A DNA stretch of 64,000 bases from Octopus vulgaris (taxonomy: Eukaryota), in the NCBI GenBank assembly GCA_951406725.2, contig OX597817.1, forward strand, positions 161,386,001-161,450,000. Reading direction: 5' to 3'. Shown here piece after piece: positions 41,582-63,641 of the stretch. The notes under the pieces were generated by a model that had not been told where the DNA came from, searched no databases, and saw only the letters and a program-made list of their open reading frames with translations. The position numbers and the translations under genes were made by a program. The stretch's first letter is position 1. Each line of letters begins with the position of its first letter.

Positions 41582-41604
41582 ATACTTCCAATATTTTGCA
41601 GATG
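41582..41604 (+). CDS. Candidate 23-nt microexon of the ASAP gene, phase 2 to 1
   Basis: Acceptor tgctttttttttctttaaag| and donor ATG|gttagt. Reads (R)YFQYFAD; 40+23=63 nt keeps the frame. Confidence 0.55.
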
Positions 41605-42075
41605 GTTAGTTTTTGAAATTCTTCTTCACCAAGTGAGGGACGGTGTTCCATGAGGAGATATAACCATTTTTAGTTCTTTAAACTCATCAACACATTTTTC
41701 TTTTTTGTTTTTGTTTCAACAATTCTGGTAGTAAAAAGGGGGGGGGGGGAAACACATTTCAGCTTCAATTTATGTTTTGTATTTCAACTGAAGAACTTGT
41801 AATGTCTGTCTATTATTGGTTAAATTTGTGGTTGTTTTTGTTACACAGCCTATCACTGATCTCAAGTGACTTTTAACAGTTGTGAAAGACCAATGTCAAC
41901 TGTACCATATCTCCCCCCCTCTGTTTCTCTCATATATGTGTGTGTGTGTGTGTGTATATATATATACAGATATAGATATAGATAGCCTGCTTGTTTCTTT
42001 CATTTTGTTCTATCTTTTTTTTCTTTTGCTGAATATATATGCTTGGTGCATCATAGTGAGTTTTCTCCCCTGTAG

Positions 42076-42150
42076 CTACAGGCACATTGTGTTGCATTCA
42101 GAGGGGAGAAGACTCATATTGTGACATGATGCATCTGCAGCGTGCTAAAG
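42076..42150 (+). CDS. Candidate 75-nt symmetric (phase 1-1) exon of the ASAP gene
   Basis: Acceptor ttttctcccctgtag| and a weaker donor AAG|gttaag. Open in phase 1: (A)TGTLCCIQRGEDSYCDMMHLQRAK. Confidence 0.5.
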
Positions 42151-43312
42151 GTTAAGTTTGTGTCAGAAACCTCTCCCTCTTTTTTCTTTCTCTCTCTTTC
42201 TCTCTCTCTCTCTATCTCCATCGTACTGTTAAGGCAGAGAACAAGATTCTGGTACTTGTTTAGCCAAAATGCTTCATGGTTTCTTATTCACCACTGAGTT
42301 GTGAAAGGTGCATACCATTTCTGATCAAACAACTAGAAACTGTTTGCGTGTATTTTTTACTTTGTGTGTGTGTTTGTGTGAACTCAAATATATATTGAAC
42401 ATTATTACCAATATCATCGTTATCTTTCTCTCCATGTGTGAAAGGGTTGTATGTGTTATTTGTCATGCATGTCATATTATCTGTGAGGCCCAACCTTCTC
42501 TGATCTGAAACTCAAATTCTTCTCTGGTCAACACCAGTCTTTCCACTCTCAGCTCTGAAAGCTGTTTTACCCAGTATGCATCATTCAGTCATATTAATCC
42601 TCGAAACCAGCACAGTCATCTCTCCCGCACATAATGTCTTTTGATTCTTTCCCAGTTAATTTTTCATTCCATTGGTTGATGTCAATGAACAGTTTTACTA
42701 TAAGAACCATACCATCGAATCCTGAATTTCCCTATCTGTATTCAATGCTCACCAATGACATTTGAGTTTTACAAGTGACCACTGCTGTCATCATTTTCAA
42801 TGTCTTTGACACATCTTCCACCTCTGTCACTTATTTCTTTATTGCCCACAAGGACCTTATCATAGAGGGGACAAACAAGGACAGACAAAGGGATTAAGTC
42901 AATTACATCGACTCCAGAGTGTAATTGGTACTTAATTTATCAACCCCAATAGGATGAAAGGCAAAGTCGACCTTGGCGGAATTTGAACTCAGAACATAAC
43001 AGCAGACAAAATACCGCTAGACTTTTCGCCGGCATTTTCGCTAGGCTTTTCATTCCTGTATGCTAGGATAAGTCCACCTAGTAGTTGTGAAGATGTGTGG
43101 CTTAGTGGTTAGCATATTTGTCTTGCAGCCCCGATTTTGATTCCTGTCGACATGTTGTGACCTTGAGCAAAACTTTCTATTTCATGTTGATCCAGTCCAC
43201 TCAGCTGGCAAAAATGAGTTATGTCTGTAATTCAAAGGGCCAGTATTGTCACATTCTGTGTCACACTGAATCTCCCTGAGAATTACATTAAGGGTACACA
43301 TGTCTGTGCTGA

Positions 43313-43727
43313 AGGCGGTGAGCTGGCAGAAACGTTAGCACGCTGGGTGAAATGCTTAGCGGTATTTTGTCTGCCATTACGTTCTGAGTTCAAATTCCGG
43401 TGAGATTGACATTGCCTTTCATCCTTTCGGGGTCGATTAAAGAAGTACCACTTACCCACTGGGGTCGATATAATCGACTTAATCTGTTTGTCTGTCCTTG
43501 TTTGTCCCCTCTGTGTTTAGCCCCTTGTGGGTAGTAAAGTAATAGGTATTTCGTCTGCCGTTACATTCTGAGCTCAAATTCCGTCGAGGTTGACTTTGCC
43601 TTTCATCCATTTGGGGTCAATAAATTAAGTATCAGTTACACACTGGGGTCGATATAATCGACTTAATCCCTTTGTCTGTCCTTGTTTGTCCCCTCTATGT
43701 TTAGCCCCTTGTGAGCAATAAAGAAAT
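43313..43727 (+). mobile_element. SINE family B with tandem internal duplication, inserted into an older SINE
   Basis: Two consecutive cores (43313-43545, 43546-43727), flanked by a duplicated TGAGAATTACATTAAGGGTACACATGTCTGT; an inverted family copy lies at 42835-43020. Confidence 0.75.
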
Positions 43728-46192
43728 GAGAATTACATTAAGGGTACACATGTCTGTACTATACTCATCCATTTGCATATTAATTTTATGAGCAGGCTGT
43801 TCTGTTAATCGAATCAGCCGGAATCCTTGTCATCAAAACCAACAGAGTGCCGATTAGACCTACTAGTTGGGATCATTGTTACCTGACCCAAAGGTCATTC
43901 TTTAACATTCTTATACTTATCTTGTCTATTTAGTTTCCCCATTTATTTGTAAACAGCCTGTTGTTGTAGTCTTTGTTCAACTCTCCAGTTAATCCTGATC
44001 AAGCAGATCAATAGTCAAAGACATTCCAGTTATGACCATCCTGTCTGCTTTTTTTAAAAACATAATGTTTACAGGACTGTAATTTGAGGGAGAGTTGACT
44101 TCTATTTCTAAACAGGTTGAATAGAGATACAGAGCAATACTCTGCAACCTTTTTTCACTTGTGGTACATTTATATTTCAAAATTTGGCGACACACCTGAA
44201 CTAAAAAGGTAGCTAAAAGTATAGGGAAAAAAGTTATATTCAGGTTACCCTGTGGCACACCTAGCATCGTTATGTTGCATGCCAGTGTGCCATGGCATAC
44301 CAGTTGTGGAGCACTGATATAGGGGCTCCTTTGTAAGTGATTGTTTGTGTCTGATGAATGTGTGTCTGTGTGCATATATGTATGTTTATTGCTCTGTCTG
44401 TGTATCCTCTTTTCTGACCAGACTTTCTTCCAAGTGTGTACACTTCTTAACATATAGTATCCTTTCATTTTTGTCTATTGTTGGAGGTGAAGGCAACTTG
44501 TCACTATTTGGTTTAGAATCTATCTTCCAACACATGAAAGTGTTTCACACATGAGGTCATCGGCAAAGTTCTCCAGCGCACTTGTTCAGCAATCATCCTC
44601 AGTGCTAAGAGGTTCTTAATTACCATCTGGTTCCAGTTTCTCTTCAAGCATCGTTTTTTTGATTTCTGGTTCTACTGCAGGGCTAACTTCACATGGTCTG
44701 GTTGGTTGGGAGTAGAATCTTTCAGTCTGGCCCAACCTGATGAGATGCCATTTGTGCAGAAACGTTGGTCTTGGAACATGTCCTCAATCCTTTTGTAACC
44801 ATATTCCTTGTTGTCGTTATCATCATCATCATCATCATCATCATCATAATTCAAAGTCCACTTTTCATTCTGGCGTAAGTGGGATGGTTTCACATCCCAC
44901 AAGCTGTAAGCCCACATCAAGCTCCAATGTCAGCTCTGGTATGGTTTCTACAGCTGGATGCCCTTTCTAATGCCAACCACTTTACAGAGTGTACTAGGTG
45001 CTTTTTACATGGCATAAGCTCTAGTGAAGTTGCAGTGTAACTTGCAAGACAAAAGAGCAGGGAAATAAAATGCCAATGTCCAATTAATTTTTGAAATAAT
45101 GAGGACTTTATTAAAATAACTTAGTCATTATTAAGCTCTTGTTTGTAACATAAATTGACATAAAATTTTGAAGTAAAGTTATAATTTACATCACTTTAAA
45201 CTGGGGAGTTTGTATCACAGAACCAGGATTCGTCTTGGGTGAGTTTGTGCCCAAAAAAGGGGGTTTTTAAAAGTGTCTTTTTCTGGGACATTATCACACA
45301 AATGTGTGTGTGTGTGTGTTGGAATGTGTATGTACATGGGTGGTGGGGTTATATTTATGTATATTTGTGTGTGTGTATAAGTGCAATATATGTGTATGTC
45401 ATATATGTTATGGTGATGATGTGTGTGTGTGTGTGTGTGTGTGTGCATGCGCAACCATGTGGTTTCAGGTTCAATACTGCTGTGTGGCACTTTAAGCAAA
45501 TGTCTTCTGCTATTGCCTCTTGTCAATCAATTCCTTCTAATTAAATTTGATAGATGGAAACCCATCATGTATGTGTGTGTGTGTGTGTTGGTTTGTTTGC
45601 ATCCCCATAACTTTGCAACTCAACAAAAGAGACCAATAGAATAAGTATGAAACTTTAAAACATGTACGGGGGTTGAAATGTTCAACTAAACCCTTCAAGG
45701 CAGTGCCCCAGCATGGCCACAGTCCAATGACTGAACAAGTAAAAGACAAAAAGACAACTGATAATCTTTATATTAATGTCACCAAGGAGTTTGCTGAAAG
45801 AATATCTGGTTGCTACACAGATTGGAACAAACTGAATATATCGATTCTCTCCTGCTAACCTTATGTGGCCCCTATTTTAAAGATCACTGGGAAGCGTGTT
45901 GAAGATTTGACTGACCCTTTCTTGCTGGTTCATGTCTAGGTAGCGGTTTGCTGTTTTGTATGGTTCAGTCTTTTTTTTATTTATTTATTTTGTTTTTGTT
46001 CCTGTTGTTGTCGTTGTCATGGTTGTCATAGTGATTTGCCAGTTCAAACATCAGAGATATTCCCCACCCACATCTCAAAAAAAAAGAAAAAGGCAAACTC
46101 AGCTTCGTTATCATTCTAGGAATATTTTGGGGGGTTTTTTTTCCTTCATTTGTTTGGTTTTTTTTTTCTTGATTTTGTTTTCTTGCCCTCAG

Positions 46193-46213
46193 AGAACGGT
46201 ATTCATGTGAAAG
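46193..46213 (+). CDS. Candidate 21-nt symmetric microexon of the ASAP gene
   Basis: Long U-rich tract, acceptor ttcttgccctcag| and donor AAG|gtaagt. Phase 1 reading (E)NGIHVK. Confidence 0.7.
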
Positions 46214-49200
46214 GTAAGTTTGTCATCATCATCGTCATCACCATTATCATCATCATCGTCGTCATCATTGTCATCATCATCATCATCGCCATCGCTGTCG
46301 ACGTTGTAACCAATATTTCTACTATCACCTTAATTAGTAGTACTGCCATTGACACCTGCATGGCTACCACTATCACTAGCGTTACCATCATCATCATCAT
46401 CATCATCATTATTAATTCTTCTATCATCATCATCATCATTATTGTTACCATTTTCAACACCACTATCATTATCATCATCATCATCGTAATCAATTGCACT
46501 GTTGTGTTCACAGTCAGAAGCACCACCACCACCAGCATCAGCAACAGCACCACCGTTACATCATTACCATTACTTTCCACACCATTATCTAAGTGCTACC
46601 CACCACCAATAGTTGCCAGGGATGTATTGACTTCTGTATACAGTCCTGTGTGTTTCTCCTTCATCCTCATTGGCTAAAACCTACAACATGCTGGTCTTTG
46701 TGATTGGTCAGAAACTCTATAAGGAACTGTCAGTGACATCATTGAGATCTGAGGATTTTCTTAGATATCTTTTATGTGATATAAAATAAATAACTGCACC
46801 CTTTTTAAAGCCTAGCCAGGCTCATGGGCCCGGTTTCCCGGTTTATATGGCGTATGTGTTCCCCAGCTGGACGGGACGCCAGTCCATCACAGCATTACTC
46901 ATTTTTGCCAGCTGAGTGGACTGGAGCAACGTGAAATCAAGTGTTTTGCTCAAGAACACAACGCGTCGCCCGGTCCAGGAATGGAAACCACAATCTTACG
47001 ATCATAATGCTGACACCCTAACCACTAAGCCACACACCTCCACTTATGTGATATATCTGGGAAAATTTTCTAGATATCCAACATGGGAATATTGGATGCC
47101 TGCCTCTACTTGAGGGTTGTATGTAGAAGTTGTCATAGTTGTTAGTTGTGGTTTAGCCTCAGGTTAGCATTCCATCCATGACTATCATTTTAATTAATTG
47201 TACTGTCATTGATAGAATTTTTGTATATTTATGACTACATTCTCCAATGTGTCGTTCCATTTTTTTATATATTAGAGTGTGATTCGAGGAAGAAACAGCT
47301 GCTATTTTTAGCATATTAGTTGACTGTGTAAAGAGGTTTTTTATGTAGAAGTAGACAAGGTTTATGTCAGGCCAGGGATCTCATCACAGGCTGATGAGAC
47401 CTGCAACTGGTACCATGTAAACCTGTATTTCCTCTTCCATGGTTGAGTGGTCAGTAACTAAACCAACTCCACCAGTTGAATAGCCTGCCACTCTTATGGA
47501 TAACCAACTGGACTAAAAACAAGACCTGCTGAAGGGCAGATGAGCTCCTAGTGTGCCAATGGCTATTCAGTTGGGGAAGGCAATGGCAAACTAGCCCAAT
47601 ATCTCTGCCAAGAAAACACTATGTGAAAGTCTCAACAAAAGTATTGCTATGGCTTCATCTGATGAGAGGACTTGCACTTAATCATTTAAACTTTCAATGT
47701 AGTGTCAGATATGCACTGCAAAAGGCATATGATACGTGACGACAATGGTGAGTCATTATTACTGTTATTATTTGACACCTTGGACTCCTGAAGACGTGGA
47801 ACTGTCCACAATATGCATTTCATGTTGAATGGCAGTCATCTTAGTTGGTACAGATTAAAAAAGACTGTAGGCATTTGTAGCACATTTGAGCTTTCTGAAG
47901 CTCAGAAGTTCTGTCTCTTCAGGTTTCTATTGTAAAATCTCTTTAGGTTTAGCATTGCTTGCCAATGAAACACTCAACAATTACACAGTATCGCAGCCAT
48001 CTGTGGCAGTGACCCATACATCGAGGTTTATATTTTAAGCCAGTGGAAGGAACTATTGGTGTTGCCTAAGTTTTGGTGTTTTGGGGGTTTTGTTTCATAC
48101 CATTTATGGTAATAGTTAATCCTATAACAAAACAGGATTATGTGCAGCTCCCATTTAACCCTGCTTGAGCAGTCTATATTGTTACATTTTTAGCATTCAG
48201 TTATTCATACGTAAACATATCCATTTGGTATCTGCACACTATGTATATATACAGGTCTGTTATATCATTGTTCTGCTAATTTTTGTTGTGGTGTTGTATG
48301 TGTTTTGCATGCTTGCACATGGCCAAAACTGTTTAAGGTGACTAGTAGTTTGATATCAAAAACAGTTTTAATATTGTACAACAAGGAGGATAATGTTAGT
48401 GAATTATGACAACTGTTTGATGTTTTGAATTTACTGCTGTAGACTTACGTAATTAGCGTAATTAGCGGAAACATGACAGCTCTAATTATCAGCTAACAAC
48501 AATAAGATGGAATCTAAACAAACATCTGGGTCTTGATTATGCCAAAGGTGATATATATGGTTAATTATCTGTAGCTTACAACTGCCTAAAGATAATACTA
48601 AGCCCCAACTAATTCAAAATCCCTTGCATTAATTGGTTTAAATGCAACCATATGATAATTTAGATTATTCAATTTAAAACATGCAATAGAAAATGTAAAA
48701 TTACAAAACTTAATCAAAGAATTATAGTTTTAAACAGATTAAAAACTGATCCTAAAACAAAAACCAGGAGAATCAACTGATGATTTCCAGCTAACATTTA
48801 ATATTCTTGTTGCTGTAATTCTTACAATCAAAAATGACCCAGAATCAGAGTTTATAATATGGATTTATATTTATGAAATTGGTTGTACTCAGATGAAAAT
48901 AAAGAATCTTAAATTGTTTAAGAATTTTACCTAAAATGTCCATCTCAGACATGCTTAGCTTTGTTGCAATGGTGTTGTCAGAATGAAGATTTGATCTTGG
49001 AACAGTAGTACAGCTGGGTTCTAATACAGAAATATTTTATGCTACTAGTAAAGATTTTTGTCAAAAAAAGTTGATTAAGCAACAAGTAACTGAGTGAGAT
49101 CAGGTTTAAAATTATAGCAATTGAGAATCGCCACAGCTTTCTGGGTCCTGTCCTGTAAATGTAAACAGTTAAAATTATGTTCAGCATACCCAGTCCCAGG

Positions 49201-49315
49201 ACACACAAAACATGATGTTGGAAATGAGCTTTAAAATCTTCTAGGAATGGGAATTATGTCTTCATGTTCTAAATGAAGGTATCAATAATTCACCACCAAT
49301 TGTTTTGGTGTAGAA

Positions 49316-49939
49316 TAGTGGTTCTCAACTGGGGTTCATTTGGCCCTTGGGGATCCATATAAAGTTTTGTTGTTAAAATTTATCTCTTTTACTTGTTTCA
49401 GTCATTTGACTGTGGCCATGCTAGAGCACCACCTTTAGTCGAGCACATCGACCCCAGGACTTACTCTTTGTAAGCCTAGTACTTATTCTATCGGTTTCTT
49501 TTGCCGAACCACTAAGTTATGGGGATGTAAACACACCAGCATCGGTTGTCAAGCAATGTTAGGGGGACAAACACAGACACACAAACATATACACACACAT
49601 ACATATATACGACAGGCTTCTTTCAGTTTTCATCTATCAAATCCACTCACAAGGCTTTGGTCAGCCCGAGGTTATAGTAGAAGACACTTGTCCAAGATGC
49701 CATGCAGTGGGACTGAACCCAGAACCATGTGGTTGGTAAGCAAGCTACTTACCACACAGCCACTCCTATGCCTATACAATACACAAAATATTTTTAAAAA
49801 TTTTAAATACAATCCCTACTAAAATCTAATTATAAAAATTCAACAGGATTTTTTAAACATTGAAAGGCTATAAAGGTCTATCCAAGTAAAGTAGGAATCA
49901 AAGTGGTCCATAGGTTAAAAAAATGGTTGAGAACCACTG
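49316..49939. mobile_element. hAT (Charlie-like) MITE with a nested family C SINE (49386-49767, minus strand)
   Basis: TIRs (T/C)AGTGGTTCTCAAC / GTTGAGAACCACTG; 8-bp TSD GTGTAGAA / GTGTTGAA (one mismatch). Confidence 0.8.
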
Positions 49940-51675
49940 GTGTTGAAGAAAGCTGGTAAATTAAAAAAGTGAGATGATTACAAAATTCATTTAAATGACA
50001 AGATGCAAATATTTTCCCATTTTAATCCACATCTTGAAACAATGTTCACTGATAATTAAGAAGCAAAGTTTTACCTCTCAAATGATTTAAATAATGCGTA
50101 CTGGCAAATTGGTTTGAGATGAAGGCTAAGAAATAGGGTGTGGGAATATATATTATGTAATTGTCTTTCCTTAATAAATAACCTTCCACTAGTAAGTTTA
50201 TAGAATTCGGAGCCGACACTGTAAGTGCTCTAAATTCTTTAGAAAATCTATTGAGATAAACTTAAACGGGAAAATATTGCATTGCTAACACAAGATAAGA
50301 CACGATAATGACTTGTGAACCAGTAATATACTATGGTTGCAAAATAAAAGATTGTGTCCTTTCTAGCAATTAATATATACATATCAGCTTCTCCTGGGTT
50401 TCAAAAACATCAGCTTTCTTTTCCAACATTGTATGGAGTCGATATTGGAGGAAATTATTGGCATGATTTTACATCAGAATGACAGACTCATTCTTGTAGT
50501 AGCCCAGAATAAACTGAAGAATCAATAAAATGCAGTCATTGCAAGACAGAAAGGAGCCACTGTATTGATTAACCTAAATAGATGCATTATTTGTGTATCT
50601 TACATAGATTTCTTATAAATGAATATTTCAAAGGTTGGAATTGAACCATGATTTAATCTAATAATTATGATTCAATGAATTAGTATAACTAAATCAAAAG
50701 AATGAATTGAAAAATGTTTGGAGTTGATTGATTATTATTACTAGTTTATACTAAAATTTGCAGACATAGTTGAGGCTTATCTTGTAGCAAAAAAGGACTA
50801 TCTCTATTTGGGACATATGTATCAGAAACAGGTCTTTAACAAAACAAATGAACTTCTTGTGCAATACCCTGTTTTGGCAACATTTGTCTGCCAAGTAAGA
50901 AACAACTCTCACTGTTGATTCTTCTGAATTTGCAAAAGTAGGAATAATGTCTTGAAATGGAAAGTCTATAGCCTGTGTTAGTTATACAATTGATAATGCT
51001 GGAGCAATAACAAACACAAAGCCTGTACAGTGGTAGGTTGTGTAGAAAGACTGAAGCATTTTCTTTTAAAGAAATCTTTGGTATTGAATATTGTTCGTTA
51101 ACATTTACAATAAAAATTTTTCAAATGATCTTCATGTTTCTAAGTGAAATTTGTAATTGATTTTTTTTTCAAAGGGTCTTGATATTTCCAAGTGAGTTTT
51201 TCAACAGATTACCTGGTGGATGCCCATATTATTACTGTATGATTTCAAGATCATTCACATTCCAGGTGAAAACTATCCCTCATGTTGATGCTTTTACTAA
51301 ACTCAAATATGATGCGGATCAGTTTGAGACAATGTTCTTTATAATTTATTATTACATTCTGACATGATTAATTAATTAATTATTGATAAGGCTTAAACAA
51401 TTAAAACAGTGGAGATTATTTAAATCCATGGACCATTTATGTTCACTTAAAGAATTCCATTACTGAAAAACAAAATTAACTTCAACAAACTTTTCAAGAA
51501 TGACTATTTGCCAGACATTCATCTGAAATGATAGCAGAGAATGGTTTTATCTTTAATAAAAAATATGCTATTTATCCCTTAAGTTTATCATACAAAAGTT
51601 CTTTCCACAACTCGTGACATAACTGGTTGCACTACCAACAGTGAAAAAAGTAAGGGCTTGTGTTTGGTGACTTAA

Positions 51676-51896
51676 CCCTTTTGTTACTGTATTTATTTTG
51701 AAATGTTCTGTGTTTCTTTCAATTACTTTAAATATTGCAAAGAATTTAGTAAAATAACTTAGTTATCATTCAGTTAGTGTTAGGAACATAAATTGTGACT
51801 AAGGTTTGGTGGAAGTTTTTAATTCAAAAATTATGTAAACAAGACATTTGTACTTCAGAGCCAGAGTCAGTTTCAGCTGGGCTGATAACGAAAGGG
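51676..51896. mobile_element. piggyBac-like MITE
   Basis: TTAA|CCCTTTTGTTA ... TAACGAAAGGG|TTAA. Confidence 0.8.
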
Positions 51897-52879
51897 TTAA
51901 TCTTGTTAGAGAAACTGAAGAATTTGTTAGACCCTTTGACATGTGTATTAATTTCAATCTCCTCCCATATTACCAATACTACTAAATCATGCTGATCCTC
52001 AAGAAATGTGAAGTATTACCTCCATTTAGGAGCTGAAGAATTGCAAAGAGAATTTGGATGCCACAAATATATACTGAATAATGCGATGTATCTTTTGTAG
52101 TTGGAATAATGTTGTATTTTTTTTTGTATCTTATCATTGATATGTAAATGTATCTGGTCAGCATCTGCACATGGTATTTATCTGCCCAGTCTGTGATTTT
52201 ATTGCTATGTTTATGTTGTTATCAAATCGCATGCATTTTGCATGGTAGCACACGGTCAGGACTATTTGAGGTGACTACCAATTCAATATCAAGGACAATT
52301 TTATAGTGAGCTCCCAGAAAAATATGATATTCAGATACAAGAGATGTCTGAAGTTTTAACCTTTCTCATCTACTGTTGTGAACTTACGGTAATTGTTGTA
52401 AATACAACAAATACATAACAAGTTGGTTGAACATATAAGCACAACACAGATACAAAAGTTAATTGTTTATAGGAATAATGCCTGTCTATACTTTAGATTC
52501 TTGTTGTTTAGTTCTGGACCATCTCTTGATCAAACAGATTTATGGTCAAAAATGCTTGAGCTGTGACCAATCCATCATTTTATATATCAGATATTATATA
52601 GTCCAATGTTTTCTTCTTTAAGTTGTGATTTGATGGATATTTGGTTGTTATTTCTAGCTACCACATTGTGGTTCCCTCATTGGCTGTTTCTATTGGCTGT
52701 CATAAAGAAGACTATCTGTTGCCAAATACAGTTGATATAGAACTGTGTGTATTGACTGTGTATCTTGACACATTTTCCTTTTTACATTAAACTACTGCTT
52801 TCTGTGTTACATTTATGGATACAACAACTTGCCTATCCTTTTAGAAATTACCAAGATATTTCACTTGTTGTTTCTTTGT

Positions 52880-53176
52880 TCCTTCTCGAGCCATGCCTGG
52901 CTCATAAGGGCCTGTTTACCGGTTTCTTGGCGTATAGGTTCCCCACCTGGACGGGACACCGGTCCGTCGCAGATGAGCTGCAAGATGCAGGAGGAAAGTA
53001 TGAGAGAAAGTTGTGGCGAAAGAGTCAGCAGAAGTTCGCCATTACCTTCTGCCGGAGCCGTGTGGAGCTTAGGTGTTTTCGCTCATAAACACACACACAT
53101 CGCCCAGTCTGAGATTCGAACCCGTGATCCCTCGACCGCGAGTCTGCTGCTCTAATCACTAGGCCATGTGCCTCCA
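52880..53176 (-). mobile_element. tRNA-derived SINE, family A variant
   Basis: Highly similar to 11327-11613; 14-bp TSD CAAGATATTTCACT. Confidence 0.85.
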
Positions 53177-53525
53177 CAAGATATTTCACTAAAGGTATGG
53201 TAGTCACTAGTCCATCTTAGGCTGGTATTACTAGATGAGTTTTCATATTTCTGCCATTATGACAGAGTAGATTTCATAAGTTTAAATTTGCTGTAGTTGT
53301 TTCATTGTGTTTCTGGGGCAGAAGACTCTATTCCATATAACTTCAGTCTCATGAACCATCAGGTGAGAATAGGCACCAAATTATCTGGGAATGTTTATTG
53401 GCTGTTAATCATTTTATCAATGGACGTTTGGAAGCCAGCTTTATTGAGCTGGCCAAGGGTTTTTGTAGAATTTAGATGTTCTCTTTTGTTGGCTTGTCTG
53501 TCACAGTTGATATTGTAATATTTAA

Positions 53526-53771
53526 CCCTTTTGTAGCCATATTTTGATTGAAATACACTGCCTATGTGCTTGAGAATTTTTTTTTCTTTAAATGACAAGA
53601 ATTTGAAGGGATTTAGTAAAATAACTTTGTTATTATTAATCTGGCGTTTGAAACATAACAAAAAGCTTCATATGTAAAATGATGGTCAGAGGATTTATAT
53701 TAAATATTAAAACAAGGGGATTTTGTATTGTAGATCCAAAGGCAGTCTTGGGACAGTGGCTTTCAAAAGGG
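53526..53771. mobile_element. Older piggyBac-like MITE
   Basis: TTAA|CCCTTTTG ... CAAAAGGG|TTAA. Confidence 0.65.
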
Positions 53772-55960
53772 TTAATATGTTTGTATGAATTAGCCATAGA
53801 TGTTATTTAGTTAGAAATTTATTTATTTTTTTTTTTGTTTGTTTTGTCCCCATTTCTCTCTTCTTAAGGAAACAACTCAGATGTTTTACTATAACTGAAG
53901 TAATTTTTTTTTTCTAATACCTTTCATTGTTCATTTACTCAGACCTTAAACTTTTCAGGTTGTATATATATGCATGTATGTGGGTTGTTGCAAAAGTCTT
54001 GTTAGTTCTTGTTCTCCTCATTGTAGCAACTTATTACTCAGTTCTTAGCATACACACTGCTGAATCTGATTTCTGTCCTTCACAAATAGAGTATTTAATA
54101 TACTGAAGCCTCAAATAGTCAGAAGGAAAAGTTTCTAAGGATTTAGATACAAAGTGAAGTGTAAGAATATGAGTATTCTTTAGAACATACCTTATCCATG
54201 AAAAAAAATGCACTCTATTCCTAATTACCATCCCATAGAACCACATTCCCACCTGCCTCCTATACTTTTTCTTTCCTACCACCTTTTCTTCTTTATATTT
54301 TACTCATTCTTTTATCTTTCCTGGTGAAGGACTAGCGCTCAAAACATCAAAACGCTTTCCTTCCCTTTTAAGTGATATACTGATATAAAATATGTTAATA
54401 TTTGTCCCTCTGGTGTTGTTTAATTCTTATTTTTTTTGGTCATTGCATAATATATAAAGAAAATACACATTCAATCAACGCAAATAAGGACCAGTTTATA
54501 CTGGAATTAATTTAATCAATTTTACATCTTCATCTCTCTCCACCACCACCACCACCAACAACAACAAAATGAAAGCTTTCTGTCTACGCTAGAGATAAAT
54601 ATTGTATGATTTTGAAATAACTATCTCAGTCATCATGGCCTTTCGTTTACTTTGTTTGGTCTTGTATGAATTTAGAATGCTAAATTTGATTTCCACCTCA
54701 TTTGTATTGGTATGTGAATCTTCTCTCCATCACTGGTGATTTTGAAGGTAACAATATTGTGATATATTTGAAATGGGTGCTATACAAATAAAACAAATGT
54801 CTACACTACAAAGAAGTGAAAGAAATGCCAAGACTTTTGTACCAACTTCATTCTGTTTGTGAATTTATTTATGCTACATAATTAGATAATTCATACCTTT
54901 CAAAGGTTATATATATATATATTATTAAGTCGCTAGGTATATCTAGATGTGTGTTCCTTTTGCTGTGAATATATATGTTTATGATTTTTTTTTTTTCTGT
55001 TTTTGCTGTTCAAATATTGATTCACATACTTGCCAAACTGAACAGATCTCATACCACACTTGATACTGTAGAAATATAAAACATTTTTGTACACTCCAGC
55101 AACTGAGATTTATTAAAGTTACAATGTGGAAGAAATGGTTCCAATCCTATTCAGTCCAAGTCTCTCTACCTGTAATGGAATACAGCTATGTTAAACTTAT
55201 GCTAGTGAATTCACAGAACAAGAGTTTAAACTACAGACAAAATTAGACATTTGTATATACCAAGGAGCTATAATAATAGATTATCACAGATTCCGTTACA
55301 TTGAAGAACATAGATTTGTACACGCTTACATTATGTGTGTATATATATGTGTGGAAGCACTCCGTCGGTTACGACAACGAGGGTTGCGGTTGATCCGATC
55401 AACGGAACAGCCTGCTCATGAAATTAACGTGTAAGTGGCTGAGCACTCCACAGACATGTGTACCCTTAACGTAGTTCTCGGGGATATTCAGCGTGACACA
55501 GAGAGTGACAAGGCCGGCCCTTTGAAATACAGGTACAACAGAAACAGGAAGTAAGAGTGAGAGAAAGTTGTGGTGAAAGAGTACTGCAGGGATCACCACC
55601 ATCCCCTGCCGGAGCCTCGTGGAGCTTTTAGGTGTGTATATATATATATATATGATGGACTCTCCTGTCGTTAGACTCCGTATGAGGGTTTGGCAATTTA
55701 TTGCCGAACAACCACAGAGATGGTTTGTTTATAGTGATCAAATGTTTGTGTACACATAAGCTCTCTCATTCCCTCCATCAAATCAACATTACCTGTACAG
55801 GTGCAATGGGCCGCCACATGTCAGATGACGAAACGATCACAGAGCAACGTGAAATGAAGTGCTTTACTCAAGAACACAATGCAATACCCGGTCTGGAAAT
55901 GATATCCATCAATGCAGTGTTGAGCACTCATATTCATATTTGACATTTTATGTTTATATA

Positions 55961-56003
<43 letters not shown>

Positions 56004-56245
56004 GTATGTATGTGTACATATATTCATCTAATCAGTGACCCAGATGACTGCAGTACTCTGGGGCATTGCCTTGAAGGGTTTACTTGAGCAAATCAACCCT
56101 AGTACTTATATTTTAAAATCTGGTGCTTATTCTATCAGTCTCGTTTGCCCAACGGCTAAGTTACAGGTACATATAAAAAACAACACCAGTTGTCAAGTGG
56201 TGGTGATGAGACAATCTCAAAGATGTGCACACGCACACATATATC

Positions 56246-56281
<36 letters not shown>

Positions 56282-56476
56282 GCAGGCATGTGCCATCAGT
56301 AATTACTCAAGGTAGGCAGTTGGTGACGTTTATGTAGTAAAACACATAAAATAAAAAAAAAAAGAGAACACAGGTGCGTGACTGAGATTTGGAGGCAGAT
56401 TTACTTCTGCCTTTGTAGTACATAAAGAAAACATTGTTGTAGGAATGTATGCAGCATGTGTACTACAGCAATACTC

Positions 56477-56841
56477 ATGGCACTCCATTGAGGGTTCTAG
56501 TTGATCAAATCAATGGAACAGCTGGCTTGTGAAATTAACGTGCAAGTGGCTGAGCACTCCACAGACACGTGTACCCATAACAGAGTTCTTGGGGAGATTC
56601 ATCGAGACACTGAGTGTGACAAGGCTGGCCCTTTGAAATACAGGTACAACAGAAACAGGAAGAAAGAGTGTAAGTTCTAGTGAAAGAATACAGTAGGGTT
56701 TTCCACCACCCCCTGCTGGAGCCTCGTGGAGCTTTAGATGTTTTTGCTCAATAAACACTCACAACACCCGGTCTGGGAATCGAAACCGCAATCCTTTGAC
56801 CACAAGTTTGCTGCCCTAACCACTGGGCCATTGTGCCTCCA
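56477..56841 (-). mobile_element. tRNA-derived SINE, family A long form (partial copy at 55355-55634)
   Basis: Minus-strand head GGAGGCACAATGGCCCAGTGG; the body is shared with 55355 and ~9320. Confidence 0.75.
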
Positions 56842-57084
56842 CACAGCCATACTGTGTAGCTTTAATACTGATATTGAAAGGCAGGGGCGAATTATGCCTA
56901 CCTAATCTACAAGACAAAATATTTTGTATTTTATGCATAGTAATCAGAGTAACCTCCATAATTTTATTGAATTAGGTGCATATTTTGCCATAAAAGGAAA
57001 ATGTTGCTATCAACCTATTTTATTCAGGGTAGGCACTGCCTACCTTGCCTACCCAGACGGCACATCCCTGATATATATACACAC

Positions 57085-57119
<35 letters not shown>

Positions 57120-57727
57120 TACATACAATGGGCATCCACACGGTTTCTACCTACCAAATTTACTCACAGGGTATTGGTTGGCTCAGGTCTATAGTGGAAG
57201 GCACTTAGCACTTGTCCAAGGTGCCATGCAGTGGGACTGAACCTGAAACAGTGATGGCTGGGAAGCAAACTTCTTACCACACAGCCACACACCTATGACA
57301 GTATATGGCCAGTGTGGGGCATGAACCCATGACATCTGCACTAGCAGCACATTAATGTGAATATACATGTGTTGTGTGAGTGCAAGTGTGTGTGTGTGTG
57401 TATTAGTGATTCCTTGTCTTGACATCTTATGATAGTTGTAAAGGGGCATCATTGTCATTTTGTTCCCAATCTTCTGAGAAAATATGTCTAGCCATGGAGC
57501 TACACCAAGCTCCAGTTGTCTGCTTTTGTATGGTTCTTCCAGCTGGATGCCCTTCCTAACACCAACCTCTTTACAACGTGTACTTGGTGCTTTTACGTGA
57601 CACCTGCACAGGTGCATTTTTTTTATGTGGTGTCAGCACAGATTCTGTGTATGTAGCACTGATGCGGTGCTTTTTATGTGACATCAGCCCCCCCCCACAC
57701 ACACACACACACATACACATACAGTTG

Positions 57728-57766
57728 TTAGATAGATAGATAAAAGGATGGATAGATGAATGGATG

Positions 57767-57811
<45 letters not shown>

Positions 57812-57822
57812 AAGGATGGATG

Positions 57823-57863
<41 letters not shown>

Positions 57864-57874
57864 AAGGATGGATG

Positions 57875-57943
<69 letters not shown>

Positions 57944-57954
57944 AAGGATGGATG

Positions 57955-57991
<37 letters not shown>

Positions 57992-58006
57992 AAGGATGGA
58001 TGGATG

Positions 58007-58055
<49 letters not shown>

Positions 58056-58090
58056 AAGGATGGATAGATAGATAGATAGATAGATAAAAG

Positions 58091-58127
<37 letters not shown>

Positions 58128-58170
58128 AAGGATGGATGGATAGATAGATAGATAGATAAAAGGATGGATG

Positions 58171-58215
<45 letters not shown>

Positions 58216-58226
58216 AAGGATGGATG

Positions 58227-58259
<33 letters not shown>

Positions 58260-58607
58260 AAGGATGGATGGATAGATAGATAGATAGATAGATATATAAA
58301 AGGATGGATGGATAGATAGATAGATATAGATAGATAGATAGATAGATAGATAAAAGGATGGATGGATGGATAGATAGATAGATAGATAGATAAAAGGATG
58401 GATGGATAGATAGATAGATACAGATAGATAGATAGATAAAAGGATGGATGGATAGAGAGATAGATAAAAGGATGGATGGATAGAGAGATAGATAAAAGGA
58501 TGGATGGATAGAGAGATAGATAAAAGGATGGATGGATAGAGAGAGAGATAGATAGATAGATAGATAAAAGGATGGATGGATAGATGGATTGAGAGATAGA
58601 CAGATAA
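57728..58607. repeat. Compound (GATA)n/(GGAT)n satellite with a higher-order AAAAGGATG punctuation
   Basis: Directly visible; it is the source of the 347-aa SIYL pseudo-ORF. Confidence 0.95.
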
Positions 58608-59054
58608 ATAGCAATATTTTTAAAATGTCATTTAGTTTGAGTGGATAGTATTAATATTTTGGTCTTGGCTAATTCTTCAAATTATCACATAGAAGATTTG
58701 CATGCAATGACAATGAAAATTTCTTCATCATAGCTTTTCTTTCGTTAAGTCTTGTCTGTAAAAGGCTGTCTTTCTCTCTCCATAGTTCAGGCTGACTTCC
58801 ACGTATATAAAACTCTTTCAGTTTCATTTCAAATATGTCTGTCTTCTGAAATTTGCATTCTGTTATTTCGTCTAATGTTAAACTGATGAAATTCATCATC
58901 CATTTTTACAGGTTGAATTATTTTTGTTGTTGTTTTTTTCTTTGTTTTTTTTTTTTATAATTTTTTTGCCTTTTTCTTCTTCTTCTTCTTGTAGCATTTC
59001 TTTGATAACTTACTTTGTATCTTACCCTGTACTCTTTTCATTTTCTGCCCTCAG

Positions 59055-59075
59055 ACAAAGATATTCATACGGGAG
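59055..59075 (+). CDS. Candidate 21-nt symmetric microexon of the ASAP gene
   Basis: Long U-rich tract, acceptor ttctgccctcag| and donor GAG|gtaagt. Phase 1 reading (D)KDIHTG. Confidence 0.7.
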
Positions 59076-59498
59076 GTAAGTTTTTCCCCCCTGTGCCATC
59101 TTACCACCACACTGTATGTTTCACCAATCATCCTCTCACCCTCATAGCAACAACAGCATCAATAACAACCACTGCATCATCACCACCACCAACAACAACA
59201 ACTACAACAGCAATAAGCCGCTTTTTATTCTTTGCTTTATGCATAATTTGTTGTTGAAGGTTTTATTTTTATTTTTTTGCAATGATTTAAATTTTTATTG
59301 TTTGTTTTGTTACATTTTTATTTGGTTTTTGACATATTCATTTGATTTTTTTTATTAATTATATCTATATTTGTTTTGTTTATTTGTATAATTATTTATT
59401 TCTTTAACCCATATCTGGAGCCACCCTGTTCATTGCTGACCCCTGAGTGTATATATGTGTGTGTGTGTGTATAAGAGACTTGGAAACAGCTTACTTAA

Positions 59499-59710
59499 CC
59501 CTTTCGTTACCATATTTATTTTGAGATGTTCTGTGTTTCTTTCAGTTAATTTTAAATATAACAAAGAATTTAGTAAAATAACTTTGTTATCATTAAGCTA
59601 GTGTTAGCAACATAAATTGTGACTAAAGTTTGGTGGAAGATTCTAATTCAAAACTTATGAAAACAAGACACTTGTACTACAGAGCCAGAGCTGGGTTGGT
59701 ATCGAAAGGG
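59499..59710. mobile_element. piggyBac-like MITE
   Basis: TTAA|CCCTTTCGTTACC ... GGTATCGAAAGGG|TTAA; same family as 51676. Confidence 0.8.
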
Positions 59711-60914
59711 TTAAACAGAGACCAGTGGGTTTTAGGGATCATCAGGAAAGAATGTACTGTTTCGAAGCTTTACAGCACACCAGCCCCCACACTGCCCTCA
59801 GTGATATGAGGCCCTGACTACTGGACCAAATGATTTATTCAGTCTTGGGTTCATTTCAGAATTATCAGCCCCATTCAAATTGTGGAATCATGCAGGTCTG
59901 ACTTTCCACAAGGGCAACCAGGCACCTGTTTCACACCCATGTGTTACCTCTTCAGCCAGATTTCATCATTCCTTTTCAACCCTTCTAGGATGACGAAATT
60001 TTCCTGAAGCAACAAAAATGGTCTAACTTAGCTCTCTGTTGGATTTTAAATATTAATGATAATAATAATAATAATAATAAAATTATTGTATACAGTGCTC
60101 AGGTGCACCACAACTTGTCAAAAGTTTGTATAAAACATATGCAGTAATTTATAGGTGGATCCTATTTGCTGCCCAAAGTAGTCAGCTAAAACTGACAAAA
60201 CTCCAACCAAGTTAGCTGATTTGGTACCCGAGGGTTTAAGGCTGGAGTGCTGTCTGGTAAAGTGTGAGGTGTGTTTCAATTGATTGGTCAATGATCAAAC
60301 AATTTAATGAGTAAAGAACTCATAATGAGTGGATAAGGGTTAGGTTTAGTTGTAAGGAATAAGTGAAGATGGTTTGAAATGTCAATGAATCAGTCAATGA
60401 TATGAAGGAGTGAAAATTCTAAATGTTGCGGAAAGTTTAAAATGGCATAAAATAAAAATTTGGATTCTGTTTCTGCAGTTTTGATGTCATAGGAGTATGA
60501 GAGCTTACAAGGGTTGTGAACATTGAGGAAAGTGACTTCAGAAAAGGGTGGTGTAAGATAGATGTGCTCAATACAAGAAGAGAGATAGTTGAACAGTTGC
60601 TAGTGGGTGGATACGTTTTGGAGATTGACAGAGACAGCAAATGAATTTAGAGGAAACGAGGTGGTGAGCTGGCAGCATTTCTTCCAGTTCCTTCTATTCT
60701 GAGTTCAAATTCTATCACAGTTGACTTTGCCTTTCATCTTTTCAGAATCAATAAAAATAAGTACCAGCAGAGCACTGGGATTTATGTAATTGGCATATCC
60801 CTTCCCCCATAAAATGAGCAGCCTTGTGCCAAAGTTTGTAACCATTATACTTTAAACCAAAATCCAAAAGAAGCAGCAGTCTTTGTTGCTGAAACCCAGG
60901 CAAGAGAAGTGAGA

Positions 60915-61428
60915 AAAACTGGGTACAGATAGCATCAGATGTAGTGTGCAAGAGAGAAGACTGCACTGGTATGGCCATGTAATGCATATGAATGAAGATA
61001 GTTGCATCAATAGGTGCCAATCTCTAATTATAGAGGGAACATGCGGAAGGGATAGACCCAAGAAGACGTGGGATGAAGTGGTGAGAATCGATCTACTGAT
61101 GCTAGGAATCACAGAGGGGATGATGGAACTGAGACACTTGATGGTTTGCTGTGCTTGAAGAGACACGTCAAACTAAGTAAAAGCATGGTTATCCTTGCAT
61201 ACAGGCTCTTCCTCTGCAACCCTGTCCAGCTGAGCATCCCTAATCTTGTGGTCTCGTAGGTGTTGGTGCCGCATAAAAAGCACCCAGTACACACTGTAAA
61301 GTGGTTGTTGTTAGGAAGAGCATCCAGCCATAGAAACCATACCAAAATAGACATAGAGCCTGAACAGCCCTTCAGCTGTCCAACCCATGCCAACATGCAA
61401 AACGGACATTCAATGATAATAATGATGA
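60915..61428 (+). mobile_element. 5'-truncated RTE LINE 3' end
   Basis: ORF 60946..61158 QERRLHWYGHVMHM...GTCGRDRPKKTWDEVV, then the UTR and a GAT-like tail; paralogous to 16250-17081. Confidence 0.85.
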
Positions 61429-61432
61429 TATA

Positions 61433-61814
61433 TCTCTCTATATATAAACGGCAGTTTGTCTGTGCGTGTTTCTGTGTGTCTGTTTGCTTGTACCCTCACC
61501 CTGACCACGGCTTTCAACCGATTCTGATGAAACTTGACACACACATAGCCCAATGTCATAATTCAAAACTAACGCAGCGAAAATTTTTAAAAGTTCCCCC
61601 AGTTCTGAAAAAAATCGATAAATTCGACATGGGGTCGAGAATTAGAAACACAAACCGCAAACTGTCTAGGGGACGCAACTCCACCTTTTTTAACTAAAAA
61701 AAAATTTACCATCATTTTTTTCCATTTTTTTGCTATTTTTTGGCTATAACTCTCTAAAAATGCTTTATAGTTATTTCCCTTACAAACCTGAGCAACGCCG
61801 GGCGATACTGCTAG
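61433..61814 (+). mobile_element. Non-autonomous Helitron, full copy
   Basis: A|TC...CTAG|T insertion signature and subterminal hairpin; nearly identical to 13299-13677. Confidence 0.85.
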
Positions 61815-62373
61815 TATATATATAAAAGCAGCGAGCTGGCTGAATTGTTACCATGCTGGGCAAAATGCTTAGTGGTATTTCATCGGAAAAATGCTATGAA
61901 AAATTACTGTTATACAAAGGGAAATTACTGTGTGATTGACCGTTATTAAGACAAAAGAGCTAGGCGCACACACGTGGGTGTGCGGGCACATGTGTAGGTA
62001 TGAACAGGTGTGCTTACGCGAATACTATGAACCTTTTACCCCCTTATTTAGTGGTCATTCGAATAGCACATGACCTTAACGTATTTTATGAATTTCAACT
62101 GGTTTTTGTGCCAATGTAGATCATTGCTAGTTTTCTCTCACATTTTGTTATCCCCCCACCTGAAGTGTAATAGTTGGCCTTGCTTAGATTTTGATGGATA
62201 TCCTCATCCTCAACAGCACCATCAGCAGCATCATCATCATCAGCAGCAACAACAATCTTGATATGATGGGTCAGATAAAAAATAATGCAAATTTCAGAGG
62301 TTTATGTTGTTCTCAAAGTTTTCTGGAACATCAATTAAACCTCTCATCTATGCTGTCACATCAATGCTATATC

Positions 62374-62406
<33 letters not shown>

Positions 62407-62695
62407 ATATGTATGTGTATATTTATATATTTGTGTGTGAGTGTATGTGTGTATACATACACATAGTTATAGTGTCATATCTCTGCTATTTTCACAATGT
62501 ATACACTACAACACCACTGTATGTAGAATACTCCTTGTATATACTCTATCTCGCTACTACTACGCCTAGTACATACACTGTTTTGCAATTTCTACACACA
62601 GTATATATATGTACACACATACATCTGATGGGTTACTCTATACTTTTGTAGAGTACAAATTTATTATTAATATTATTATTATTATTATTATTATT

Positions 62696-63238
62696 GAGAG
62701 AACAGTGCATGCCATCAAAGTGACACTGGGGTAAAATATACGAAGCCCAGTATACCCATCACCTGTCTGATAAGGGTACATCAGGCACATGCATCACAAT
62801 CATATGCGCAACATGGTGATCTCATATCAAGATAAACAGCGCATGACCTTGCAGGTGGGGCCCAGTTAGAATTTTCTTCTGGTCGAGTAGCCCATCCCGC
62901 TCAAAAGGTCCCTGAATAAGGATTGTCTAAGGATGTTGAATGAACCACCCATGTTTCCAAAGGTGAATTATCTAAACGTCCAAGAATTCCTTTCAACACA
63001 CAGCTATGATGCTCCCCCACTGCTTCTGCTCATGATCAGGGATGCACATGTCGTCAGCCACTAAGCGACTTGGTCAACAGGTTACGGTCAAACAACTTAC
63101 AAACAAATCTGTGGTATTGAGCAGAATATTTGCTGTAGCCCATCTTTTATACCAAGACAAAACAATGTACATGGTAACACTTCTAATCAGTTAAGATCAG
63201 AAGCTATGAGAGCCACTGCCTGGTACTGCATCAGGGCA

Positions 63239-63240
<2 letters not shown>
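62696..63240. mobile_element. Unclassified ~550-bp insertion within a (TTA)n microsatellite
   Basis: GC-richer block bounded on both sides by (TTA)n; no clear ORF or family motif recognised. Confidence 0.35.
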
Positions 63241-63295
<55 letters not shown>

Positions 63296-63567
63296 ACACG
63301 AATATTATTGACAGTGATTTTGAAGTTTTGGCCAGCTACAATAATAATCTTGTTTAAGGACAAAATGTATGCATGTGTGTGTGTATGTGGGTATAGTATT
63401 ATGTAATATTCCTTAATATACAAACACACAGAAGTGTATGTGCTCACATATGCATGCACACACACAATTTTGTTGCATTTCCTTGCATGTAAAGATTGCA
63501 TTCTTCTTCAAATATTGGCGTGTGCTGCAGTGTTTCTTAAAAAATACGCATGCATTGTGCCCCACAG

Positions 63568-63641
63568 CGTGTACTTCAGTGCCATATCCTTTGAGTAGAG
63601 TTGAGTATATACCCAGGTACAAAACCGTTTTGCCTACTCAA
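63568..63641 (+). CDS. Weak candidate exon of the ASAP gene, phase 1 to 0
   Basis: Acceptor tgtgccccacag| and donor CAA|gtgagt. Open as (A)CTSVPYPLSRVEYIPRYKTVLPTQ, but the pyrimidine tract is poor. Confidence 0.28.

What the first reader, a model, noticed from the sequence alone, without database searches (positions are those of the whole stretch)
46193..59075. Two apparently paralogous 21-nt microexons, 12.9 kb apart, with identical UGC-containing acceptors
Seen: AGAACGGTATTCATGTGAAAG (46193-46213) and ACAAAGATATTCATACGGGAG (59055-59075) match at 14/21 positions without gaps. They share the acceptor TGCCCTCAG and the donor AG|GTAAGTTT, follow long U-rich tracts, and are followed by CAT/CAC-rich low-complexity intron. 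Both are phase 1-1, encoding ENGIHVK and DKDIHTG. Established: neural microexons activated by SRRM3/4 (Srrm234 eMIC domain) have UGC motifs just upstream of the 3' splice site and are enriched in vesicle-trafficking genes. Inference: a duplicated neural microexon pair (additive or mutually exclusive) tunes the ASAP linker between the proline-rich region and the SH3 domain.
Basis: partly seen in the sequence, partly recalled or inferred. Interest (0 to 1): 0.72.

Follow-up and report, generated by a model that had tools for sequence, protein, structure and literature searches.

The report
Duplicated microexon pair in octopus ASAP
An octopus gene for a membrane-trafficking protein (ASAP) holds two related 21-base mini-exons in one intron: one is an optional exon already in gene models and shared with cuttlefish-type transcripts, the other is an unannotated copy that is likely but not shown to be spliced, and both carry signals predicted to favour their use in neurons.

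Summary
A (46193-46213) and B (59055-59075) lie in one 32-kb intron of octopus ASAP and are duplicates: 31/38 identical with splice flanks, and the only 2 matches of their cassette pattern in 2.8 Gb. The flanking exons make them phase 2-2, so B encodes (R)QRYSYG and A (R)ERYSCE. B is a real alternative exon: 9 of 12 octopus protein models include it, 3 skip it. One of 18 cuttlefish-type proteins has RQRYSCG there, another a different 18-nt insert. A is in 0 of 12 models and I obtained no junction reads. Its splice flanks are 19/19 identical to B's while the body has diverged (12/19), which suggests selection; about 70% it is spliced. Both have UGC at -9 and the two densest downstream YCAY clusters among 29 exons. 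The genome encodes a two-exon eMIC-type domain. Neural regulation is inferred, not tested. I found no mechanism for mutual exclusion. The scan noted duplicated microexons in other genes of this genome, not this locus.

The parts
46193..46213 (+). Microexon A, 21 nt, phase 2-2, would insert (R)ERYSCE; unannotated, splicing not shown
   Evidence: absent from 12 of 12 octopus-type and 18 of 18 cuttlefish-type proteins spanning the junction
46122..46192 (+). Acceptor region of A: 71-nt AG-free, U-rich tract ending TGCCCTCAG, UGC at -9
46214..46520 (+). Donor GTAAGTTT of A followed by a CAT repeat: 19-20 YCAY in 150 nt, 42 in 300 nt; candidate Nova/Pasilla-type enhancer (inferred)
59055..59075 (+). 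Microexon B, 21 nt, phase 2-2, inserts (R)QRYSYG; annotated alternative cassette; counterpart RQRYSCG in a cuttlefish-type protein
58997..59054 (+). Acceptor region of B: 58-nt AG-free pyrimidine tract ending TGCCCTCAG, UGC at -9
59076..59235 (+). Donor GTAAGTTT of B followed by a CAC/CAT/CAA-rich stretch, 12 YCAY in 150 nt
39931..39970 (+). Upstream flanking exon U (GSKVVLQKPAESE), 40 nt, ends in phase 2; fixes the reading frame of A and B
   Evidence: junction 31323->39931 seen in contigs of 4 of 4 runs
39971..64000 (+). Host intron, 32,258 nt; runs past the window to the downstream exon D (SVLPPPLPHPR...) at G000:C4:161458229-161458290
31015..31323 (+). Alternative 309-nt proline-rich exon P of ASAP
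15123..15167 (+). Alternative 45-nt exon (KFKLRSYLSRSKLKS) of ASAP
828..11864 (+). Five ASAP exons of the ankyrin and post-ankyrin region (starting at 828, 3245, 5279, 8506, 11699)

Best explanation
B is an optional, frame-keeping 7-residue microexon of octopus ASAP shared with cuttlefish-type transcripts, and A is its tandem duplicate in the same intron, likely still spliced; both are predicted to be switched on in neurons, independently of each other, and would add one or two R-x-R-Y-S units in front of a PxxxPR motif. Shown: gene identity, frame, duplication, inclusion and skipping of B in gene models, the cuttlefish-type counterpart, the UGC, AG-free and YCAY features, and an eMIC-type domain in the genome. 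Inferred: (1) one ancestral microexon was copied with its splice signals long enough ago for the flanking intron to become unalignable; (2) selection has kept A's splice signals; (3) the Srrm234 eMIC isoform acts at the UGC acceptor, helped by a Nova/Pasilla-type protein on the downstream YCAY cluster; (4) four forms are possible (none, A, B, A+B), B the commonest inclusion form; (5) the basic, Tyr/Ser-bearing insert alters binding of SH3 partners, or phosphorylation, at the adjacent PxxxPR site. Step 5 is the weakest.
For: B: included in 9 and skipped in 3 of 12 octopus-type proteins; among the 8 isoforms on one RefSeq chromosome, 5 include and 3 skip. RQRYSCG sits at the same junction in P0151, whose C-terminus matches the named Acanthosepion pharaonis ASAP almost exactly.

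A: 19/19 splice-flank positions equal B's against 12/19 in the exon body (Fisher p=0.008; p=0.06 for the 9 non-consensus positions alone). A shares Cys with the cuttlefish-type B. Donor 9/9 to consensus. A second, different insert (RYMQNE, 18 nt) at this junction in P0152 shows that cuttlefish-type ASAP has more than one small insert form here.

Regulation: UGC at -9 in both, against UGC at -15..-6 in 3 of 28 other acceptors of the gene. Long AG-free zones and UGC are the published eMIC code (10.1101/2021.02.24.432780, passages; 10.1101/2024.09.17.613571, section 10). YCAY counts of 20 and 12 rank first and second of 29 exons (others 0-11). Pasilla sites are enriched downstream of enhanced exons (PMC3165201, passages), and Pasilla is the factor overlapping most with fly eMIC targets (PMC8797185, section 11). 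SRRM_C (PF15230) scores over its cut-off at C25:37317492 (32.6 bits), with an in-phase next exon 24 kb downstream. ASAP genes host eMIC-dependent exons in fly, mouse and zebrafish (supplement rows).
Against: A is in 0 of 30 cephalopod proteins that span the junction, including 8 isoforms of a very close species. No read or contig evidence for A or A+B was obtained. Protein-level constraint on A is not significant: 7 random substitutions give at most 3 amino-acid changes without a stop in 17% of trials. The 18-nt cuttlefish-type insert does not align convincingly to A and has no match in the octopus intron. No tissue data at all; B appears in most octopus models, which would also fit broad inclusion. 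The UGC and YCAY features of A and B are not independent, being duplicates. CAT repeats are common here: 1.5% and 3.1% of 150-nt windows of the gene reach A's and B's counts. UGC is present in only 74-79% of SRRM3/4 targets and is not strictly required. Fly eMIC exons have weak donors, whereas these are strong. The link between the eMIC exons and the cwf21 exon 1.5 Mb upstream was not shown.
Confidence: 0.55

Rival explanations
1. B is the only working microexon. A is a duplicate that is silent or nearly so, a cryptic or recently retired exon whose splice sites have not yet decayed.
For: A is absent from 12 of 12 octopus-type proteins that span the junction, and from all 323 proteins held. The amino-acid conservation test is not significant.
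Against: Splice flanks are 19/19 identical while the exon body differs at 7/19 and the wider flanks are unalignable. Neutral decay at the body's rate would keep 19/19 with probability about 2e-4, or 4e-3 for the 12 positions outside the minimal consensus. A has the better donor, longer U tract and larger YCAY cluster. Gene models often miss microexons (own knowledge).
Confidence: 0.25
2. A and B are a mutually exclusive homologous pair: a transcript takes one, the other or neither, swapping E-R-Y-S-C-E for Q-R-Y-S-Y-G between cell types.
For: Homologous tandem exons are typically spliced as substitutions (PMC9741552, abstract start and two passages). The two cuttlefish-type inclusion forms each carry a single insert (2 of 18).
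Against: No steric block (12,841 nt between them); both are GT-AG; both keep the frame, so decay of double-inclusion transcripts would not enforce exclusion. None of 8 flank pairings beat all 12 random controls. Two inclusion forms are too few to show exclusion.
Confidence: 0.12
3. Both are real cassettes but not a neural eMIC programme. Inclusion is broad or set by a Nova/Pasilla-type or other factor in non-neural tissue, and UGC is simply part of a good pyrimidine tract copied with the exon.
For: B is in 9 of 12 octopus models. Donors are strong. UGC also occurs in 3 of 28 other acceptors of the gene. No tissue data were obtained.
Against: Three octopus isoforms and 16 of 18 cuttlefish-type proteins skip, so inclusion is regulated. 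TGCCCT is kept exactly in both copies while neighbouring intron has diverged. ASAP is a recurrent eMIC target in three other lineages.
Confidence: 0.08

Closest known systems
SRRM3/4 (Srrm234 eMIC)-dependent neural microexons
   Same: Length 3-27 nt, frame-keeping, long AG-free pyrimidine tract, UGC next to the acceptor, host gene in membrane traffic; an eMIC-type domain is encoded in this genome.
   Different: Tissue pattern and eMIC dependence are untested here. Two homologous copies sit in one intron, which my literature searches did not find described.
eMIC-regulated exons of ASAP genes: zebrafish asap1b DreEX0015073 (9 nt; human HsaEX0006155), mouse Asap2 MmuEX0006337, fly Asap DmeEX0000248 (48 nt)
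   Same: Same gene family; small alternative exons, neural and eMIC-dependent in those species (supplement rows).
   Different: The zebrafish primers read, by my translation by eye, as the BAR-PH linker, where octopus has a separate 36-nt alternative exon. A and B lie in the C-terminal proline-rich tail, at a junction I could align only among cephalopods. The position of the fly exon was not checked.
Tandem duplicated exon substitution (homologous mutually exclusive exons; PMC9741552)
   Same: Two homologous exons of equal length and phase in one intron.
   Different: Here the exon can be skipped altogether (3 of 12 octopus models), it is only 21 nt, and no exclusion mechanism was found.
Nova/Pasilla-enhanced cassette exons
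   Same: Dense YCAY cluster just downstream of the donor, the enhancing position on the splicing map (PMC3165201).
   Different: The clusters are simple repeats common in this genome. Their conservation, and an octopus Nova gene, were not checked.

Membership tests
ASAP ArfGAP family (host gene) | BAR-PH-ArfGAP-ankyrin-proline-rich-SH3 architecture encoded by the locus | tested here: met
   P0001 carries these Pfam domains; P0005 maps exon by exon over the window and neighbouring DNA, 28 on-gene tblastn segments at 80-100% identity covering most of residues 42-1049
Microexon (cassette) | 3-27 nt with canonical splice sites, frame-keeping | tested here: met
   Both 21 nt, CAG/GTAAG, phase 2-2
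Microexon (cassette) | Found in spliced products, with inclusion and skipping forms: exon B | tested here: met
   9 include and 3 skip of 12 octopus protein models; 1 of 18 cuttlefish-type proteins. Models and contig-derived proteins, not junction reads
Microexon (cassette) | Found in spliced products: exon A | tested here: inconclusive
   0 of 30 cephalopod proteins; the stretch laid did not include A
eMIC/SRRM3-4-dependent neural microexon | UGC between pyrimidine tract and AG; long AG-exclusion zone | tested here: met
   UGC at -9, AG-free 71 and 58 nt; 3 of 28 other acceptors have UGC at -15..-6
eMIC/SRRM3-4-dependent neural microexon | Regulator with an eMIC domain present in the species | tested here: met
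   PF15230 over cut-off with an in-phase second exon; its expression was not tested
eMIC/SRRM3-4-dependent neural microexon | Neural-specific inclusion | not testable with these tools
   Runs carry no tissue label and are held as contigs
eMIC/SRRM3-4-dependent neural microexon | Inclusion depends on eMIC | not testable with these tools
   Needs a minigene or knockdown
Tandem duplicated exons | Homologous exons of the same phase in one intron | tested here: met
   21/28 non-consensus positions identical, p about 1e-6; only 2 pattern hits genome-wide
Mutually exclusive exons | One and only one exon included (no skipping, no double inclusion) | tested here: not met
   Complete skipping in 3 of 12 octopus and 16 of 18 cuttlefish-type proteins; double inclusion could not be tested
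Mutually exclusive exons | Exclusion mechanism (steric, U2/U12, frame, docking pairing) | tested here: inconclusive
   Steric, U12 and frame routes are excluded by the anatomy; no pairing above controls within 300-nt flanks; more distant sites not tested
Nova/Pasilla-enhanced exon | YCAY cluster in the proximal downstream intron | tested here: met
   20 and 12 YCAY in 150 nt, the top two of 29 exons
Nova/Pasilla-enhanced exon | Cluster conserved and bound; inclusion depends on Nova | not tested
   No second cephalopod genome available; no search for an octopus Nova gene was run

The most novel reading that the evidence does not exclude
Coleoid ASAP carries an old two-microexon switch at one junction, copied together with its whole neural splicing code (UGC acceptor plus downstream YCAY cluster). 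Different neuron types would then stack zero, one or two R-x-R-Y-S units in front of an SH3-binding motif. The Cys of copy A may even hard-wire in DNA what A-to-I editing makes of B's Tyr codon (TAC read as TGC), which would explain the Cys in the cuttlefish-type B transcript.
Probability: 0.2. Interest if true: 0.68.

Novelty: new member of a known kind. Interest (0 to 1): 0.45.

Why it matters
How new neural microexons arise is open, and most are reported to be lineage-specific while recurring in the same genes. A microexon copied whole with its acceptor UGC and donor gives a direct route (duplication) and a natural paired minigene for testing which cis features set eMIC sensitivity in a mollusc. 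My searches found no such test for that group. It would also add cephalopods to fly, mouse and zebrafish as a lineage with a regulated small exon in ASAP, apparently at a new site. If A is silent, the result shrinks to one annotated microexon plus a relic.

Tried and rejected
2. Both sites as copies of a dispersed repeat: rejected; 2 pattern hits genome-wide, and B's 121-nt region has 1 match, itself.
3. Junction evidence from sequencing runs. 24 runs were listed, none on record as RNA, all held as contigs; no evidence either way on expression. The one completed laying (window 30900-40600, 4 runs) did not cover A or B. It showed the P-U junction in 4 of 4 runs; its loose-end table was filled by repeats (654 rows not shown). 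The 952-nt contig of run X1 would end just before a poly-T run in the 3' UTR if it skips both exons. That is only a weak hint of a skip form in that run, and I do not count it.
4. Protein-level selection on A by simulation: not significant (P about 0.17).
5. An octopus counterpart of the cuttlefish-type 18-nt insert (YMQNE) or 15-nt insert (KKQFL): none found in the matching introns.
6. Docking-site pairing: none of 8 flank pairs beat all 12 controls. The inverted-repeat list showed only interspersed and simple repeats (25 of 400 shown).
7. Search of 50%-identity representatives with P0151: the 150 listed hits were mostly multi-SH3 proteins and none held the A, B or YMQNE motifs.
8. Six of the 21 members of the decapodiform-type cluster were never listed.
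9. A conserved tyrosine sorting motif: YGSV arises only with octopus B, not with A or the cuttlefish-type forms; not pursued.
10. The 2019 paper defining eMIC (10.1038/s41559-019-0813-6) is not held. Its tables, and the closed supplements of bioRxiv 10.64898/2026.09.05.749416 (which includes O. bimaculoides tissues), may already list B or A with tissue data.
Full report
1. Observation. They are 14/21 identical, with the same TGCCCTCAG acceptor and AG|GTAAGTTT donor. Over the 38 positions from -9 to +8, 31 match. Leaving out the ten consensus positions, 21 of 28 match (p about 1e-6). The pattern TGCCCTCAG-N19-AG-GTAAG occurs twice in the 2.8-Gb genome, at A and B, and the reversed control never. 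A filter for strong microexon-like sites, set after seeing the two, finds only them in 968 kb of strand-bases. The 400-nt flanks further out align no better than shuffles (scores 37 and 30; shuffle maxima 39 and 33). So they are duplicates of each other, old enough for the intron around them to have diverged, and not copies of a dispersed repeat.

2. Host gene and frame. The window is G000:C4:161386001-161450000. Its 309-nt proline-rich exon matches an Octopus sinensis ASAP at 98%, and a full-length isoform maps exon by exon across about 233 kb. A and B lie in one intron of 32,258 nt between exon U (39931-39970) and exon D (just past the window). U ends GAG AG|GT and D begins with T, so the intron is phase 2. 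In the right frame the two peptides share R-x-R-Y-S and 4 of 7 base differences are synonymous. The insert lands directly before SVLPPPLPHPR, which holds a PxxxPR motif, about 67 residues before the SH3 domain. CIN85 SH3 domains are reported to bind PxxxPR motifs of human ASAP1 (PMC3805583, passages).

3. B is real. Of 14 proteins in the octopus cluster, 12 span the junction: 9 contain RQRYSYG and 3 skip it. Among the 8 isoforms on one RefSeq chromosome, 5 include and 3 skip. Of 18 proteins of cuttlefish type (near-identical at the C-terminus to the named Acanthosepion pharaonis ASAP), 16 skip. One (P0151) has RQRYSCG and one (P0152) has a different 18-nt insert, RYMQNE. Six members of that cluster were never listed. 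B thus appears to predate the octopus-cuttlefish split with one residue changed, and is optional in both. These are gene models and contig-derived proteins, not junction reads.

4. A is likely, not shown. It is in 0 of these 30 proteins. The completed read-laying covered 30900-40600 only and showed the P-U junction in 4 of 4 runs, nothing on A. The case for A is indirect. Its 19 splice-flank positions are all identical to B's while the body differs at 7 of 19 (Fisher p=0.008; 0.06 on the 9 non-consensus positions). It has no stop in frame, it shares Cys with the cuttlefish-type B, and it has the best donor and the most U-rich acceptor of the candidates in the intron. Against: a simulation of 7 random changes gives at most 3 residue changes without a stop in 17% of trials, so protein-level selection is not demonstrated. 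The cuttlefish-type 18-nt insert cannot be aligned to A with confidence and has no match in this intron. I put the chance that A is spliced in some tissue at about 0.7.

5. Regulation (inferred). Both have UGC at -9; 3 of the 28 other mapped acceptors have UGC at -15..-6. Long AG-free zones and UGC near the acceptor are the published eMIC code (10.1101/2021.02.24.432780, introduction and passages). UGC is found in 74-79% of SRRM3/4 targets and is not strictly required (10.1101/2024.09.17.613571, section 10). The genome has one PF15230 match over the cut-off, and a second exon 24 kb downstream continues it in phase (the motif used to find the second exon was recalled). The 'low-complexity' sequence after the donors holds 20 and 12 YCAY per 150 nt, first and second of 29 exons (others 0-11). 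About 1.5% and 3.1% of windows in the gene reach these counts. Pasilla/Nova sites are enriched downstream of enhanced exons (PMC3165201, passages), and Pasilla overlaps most with eMIC targets in fly brain (PMC8797185, section 11). ASAP genes carry eMIC-dependent exons in fly, mouse and zebrafish (supplement rows of PMC8797185 and PMC12626424). None of this is tissue evidence for octopus, and the two copies are not independent observations.

6. Additive or exclusive. The exons are 12,841 nt apart, both GT-AG and both frame-keeping, so steric clash, spliceosome type and frame cannot enforce exclusion. No flank pairing beat all random controls (8 pairs, 12 controls each). Complete skipping is common. 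The default is two independent cassettes giving none, A, B or A+B; only none and B are documented.

7. Comparison and novelty. It works like an eMIC-type neural microexon in a trafficking gene. The cis features and the regulator's presence are met; neural specificity and dependence are untestable here, so it is not filed as a proven member. It meets the definition of tandem duplicated exons but not of a strict mutually exclusive pair. B is already in public gene models; A is not. Searches for microexon with ASAP1 or octopus, eMIC/Srrm234 with octopus or mollusc, cephalopod microexon splicing, octopus ASAP splicing and five phrasings of duplicated microexons (one listing, PMC7935315, not opened) gave no description of this locus. 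I saw listings only, except for the papers cited with what was read. The 2019 eMIC paper is not held, and the supplements of bioRxiv 10.64898/2026.09.05.749416, which includes O. bimaculoides (passages), are closed; either may list these exons. Earlier scan notes report duplicated or optional microexons in other genes of this genome (unchecked), so microexon duplication may be common in octopus; none concerns this locus.

8. Verdict. A real feature with a corrected frame: one annotated, conserved alternative microexon and one likely unannotated duplicate, with a plausible but untested neural splicing code. New member of a known kind; interest 0.45.

Noticed in passing
G000:C4, about 24.3 kb upstream of the window (161361668 onward): 36-nt alternative exon HAHHRLSGGSWI in the BAR-PH linker. 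It is included or skipped in octopus, cuttlefish-type, limpet and abalone proteins, and chiton has an 18-nt optional insert at the same place. The zebrafish asap1b 9-nt neural microexon appears, from its primers, to lie in this linker too, so this may be the older recurrent splice site. Its acceptor is AAG without UGC.
   Followed up: partly
window 15123-15167: The 45-nt alternative exon reads KFKLRSYLSRSKLKS in octopus but KFITIPSLYRDKNKT in a cuttlefish-type protein and KYIT/KYVT-type in other molluscs: strongly diverged in octopods. Cuttlefish-type proteins also have a 15-nt form (KKQFL) with no match in the octopus intron.
   Followed up: partly
P0152, junction KPPDTE|SVLPPP: A second, 18-nt insert (RYMQNE) at the A/B junction in a cuttlefish-type protein; orthologue of A or an independent exon, undecided.
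   Followed up: partly
P0151 against window 59055-59075: Cuttlefish-type B has Cys where octopus B has a Tyr codon (TAC) and A has TGT: either Cys is ancestral or B is recoded by A-to-I editing.
   Followed up: no
G000:C25:37317492-37317626 and from 37341779; cwf21 exon at C25:35789896: Two-exon eMIC-type domain, 1.5 Mb downstream of a cwf21 exon on the same strand. If these are one gene, octopus Srrm234 is very long. A second, unsplit cwf21 match lies at C27:11415.
   Followed up: partly
window 31015-31323: The 309-nt proline-rich exon P is itself alternative in octopus, cuttlefish-type and chiton proteins, and has UGC at -11 in its acceptor.
   Followed up: no
window 57729-58611: 880-nt TAGA/TGGA tetranucleotide array ending about 440 nt upstream of B.
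   Followed up: no
G000:C4:161459686 (downstream of the window): Several molluscan ASAP clusters differ by one residue (KKK against KK) just before the SH3 domain, suggesting a tandem splice-site choice at this exon border; not examined in octopus.
   Followed up: no
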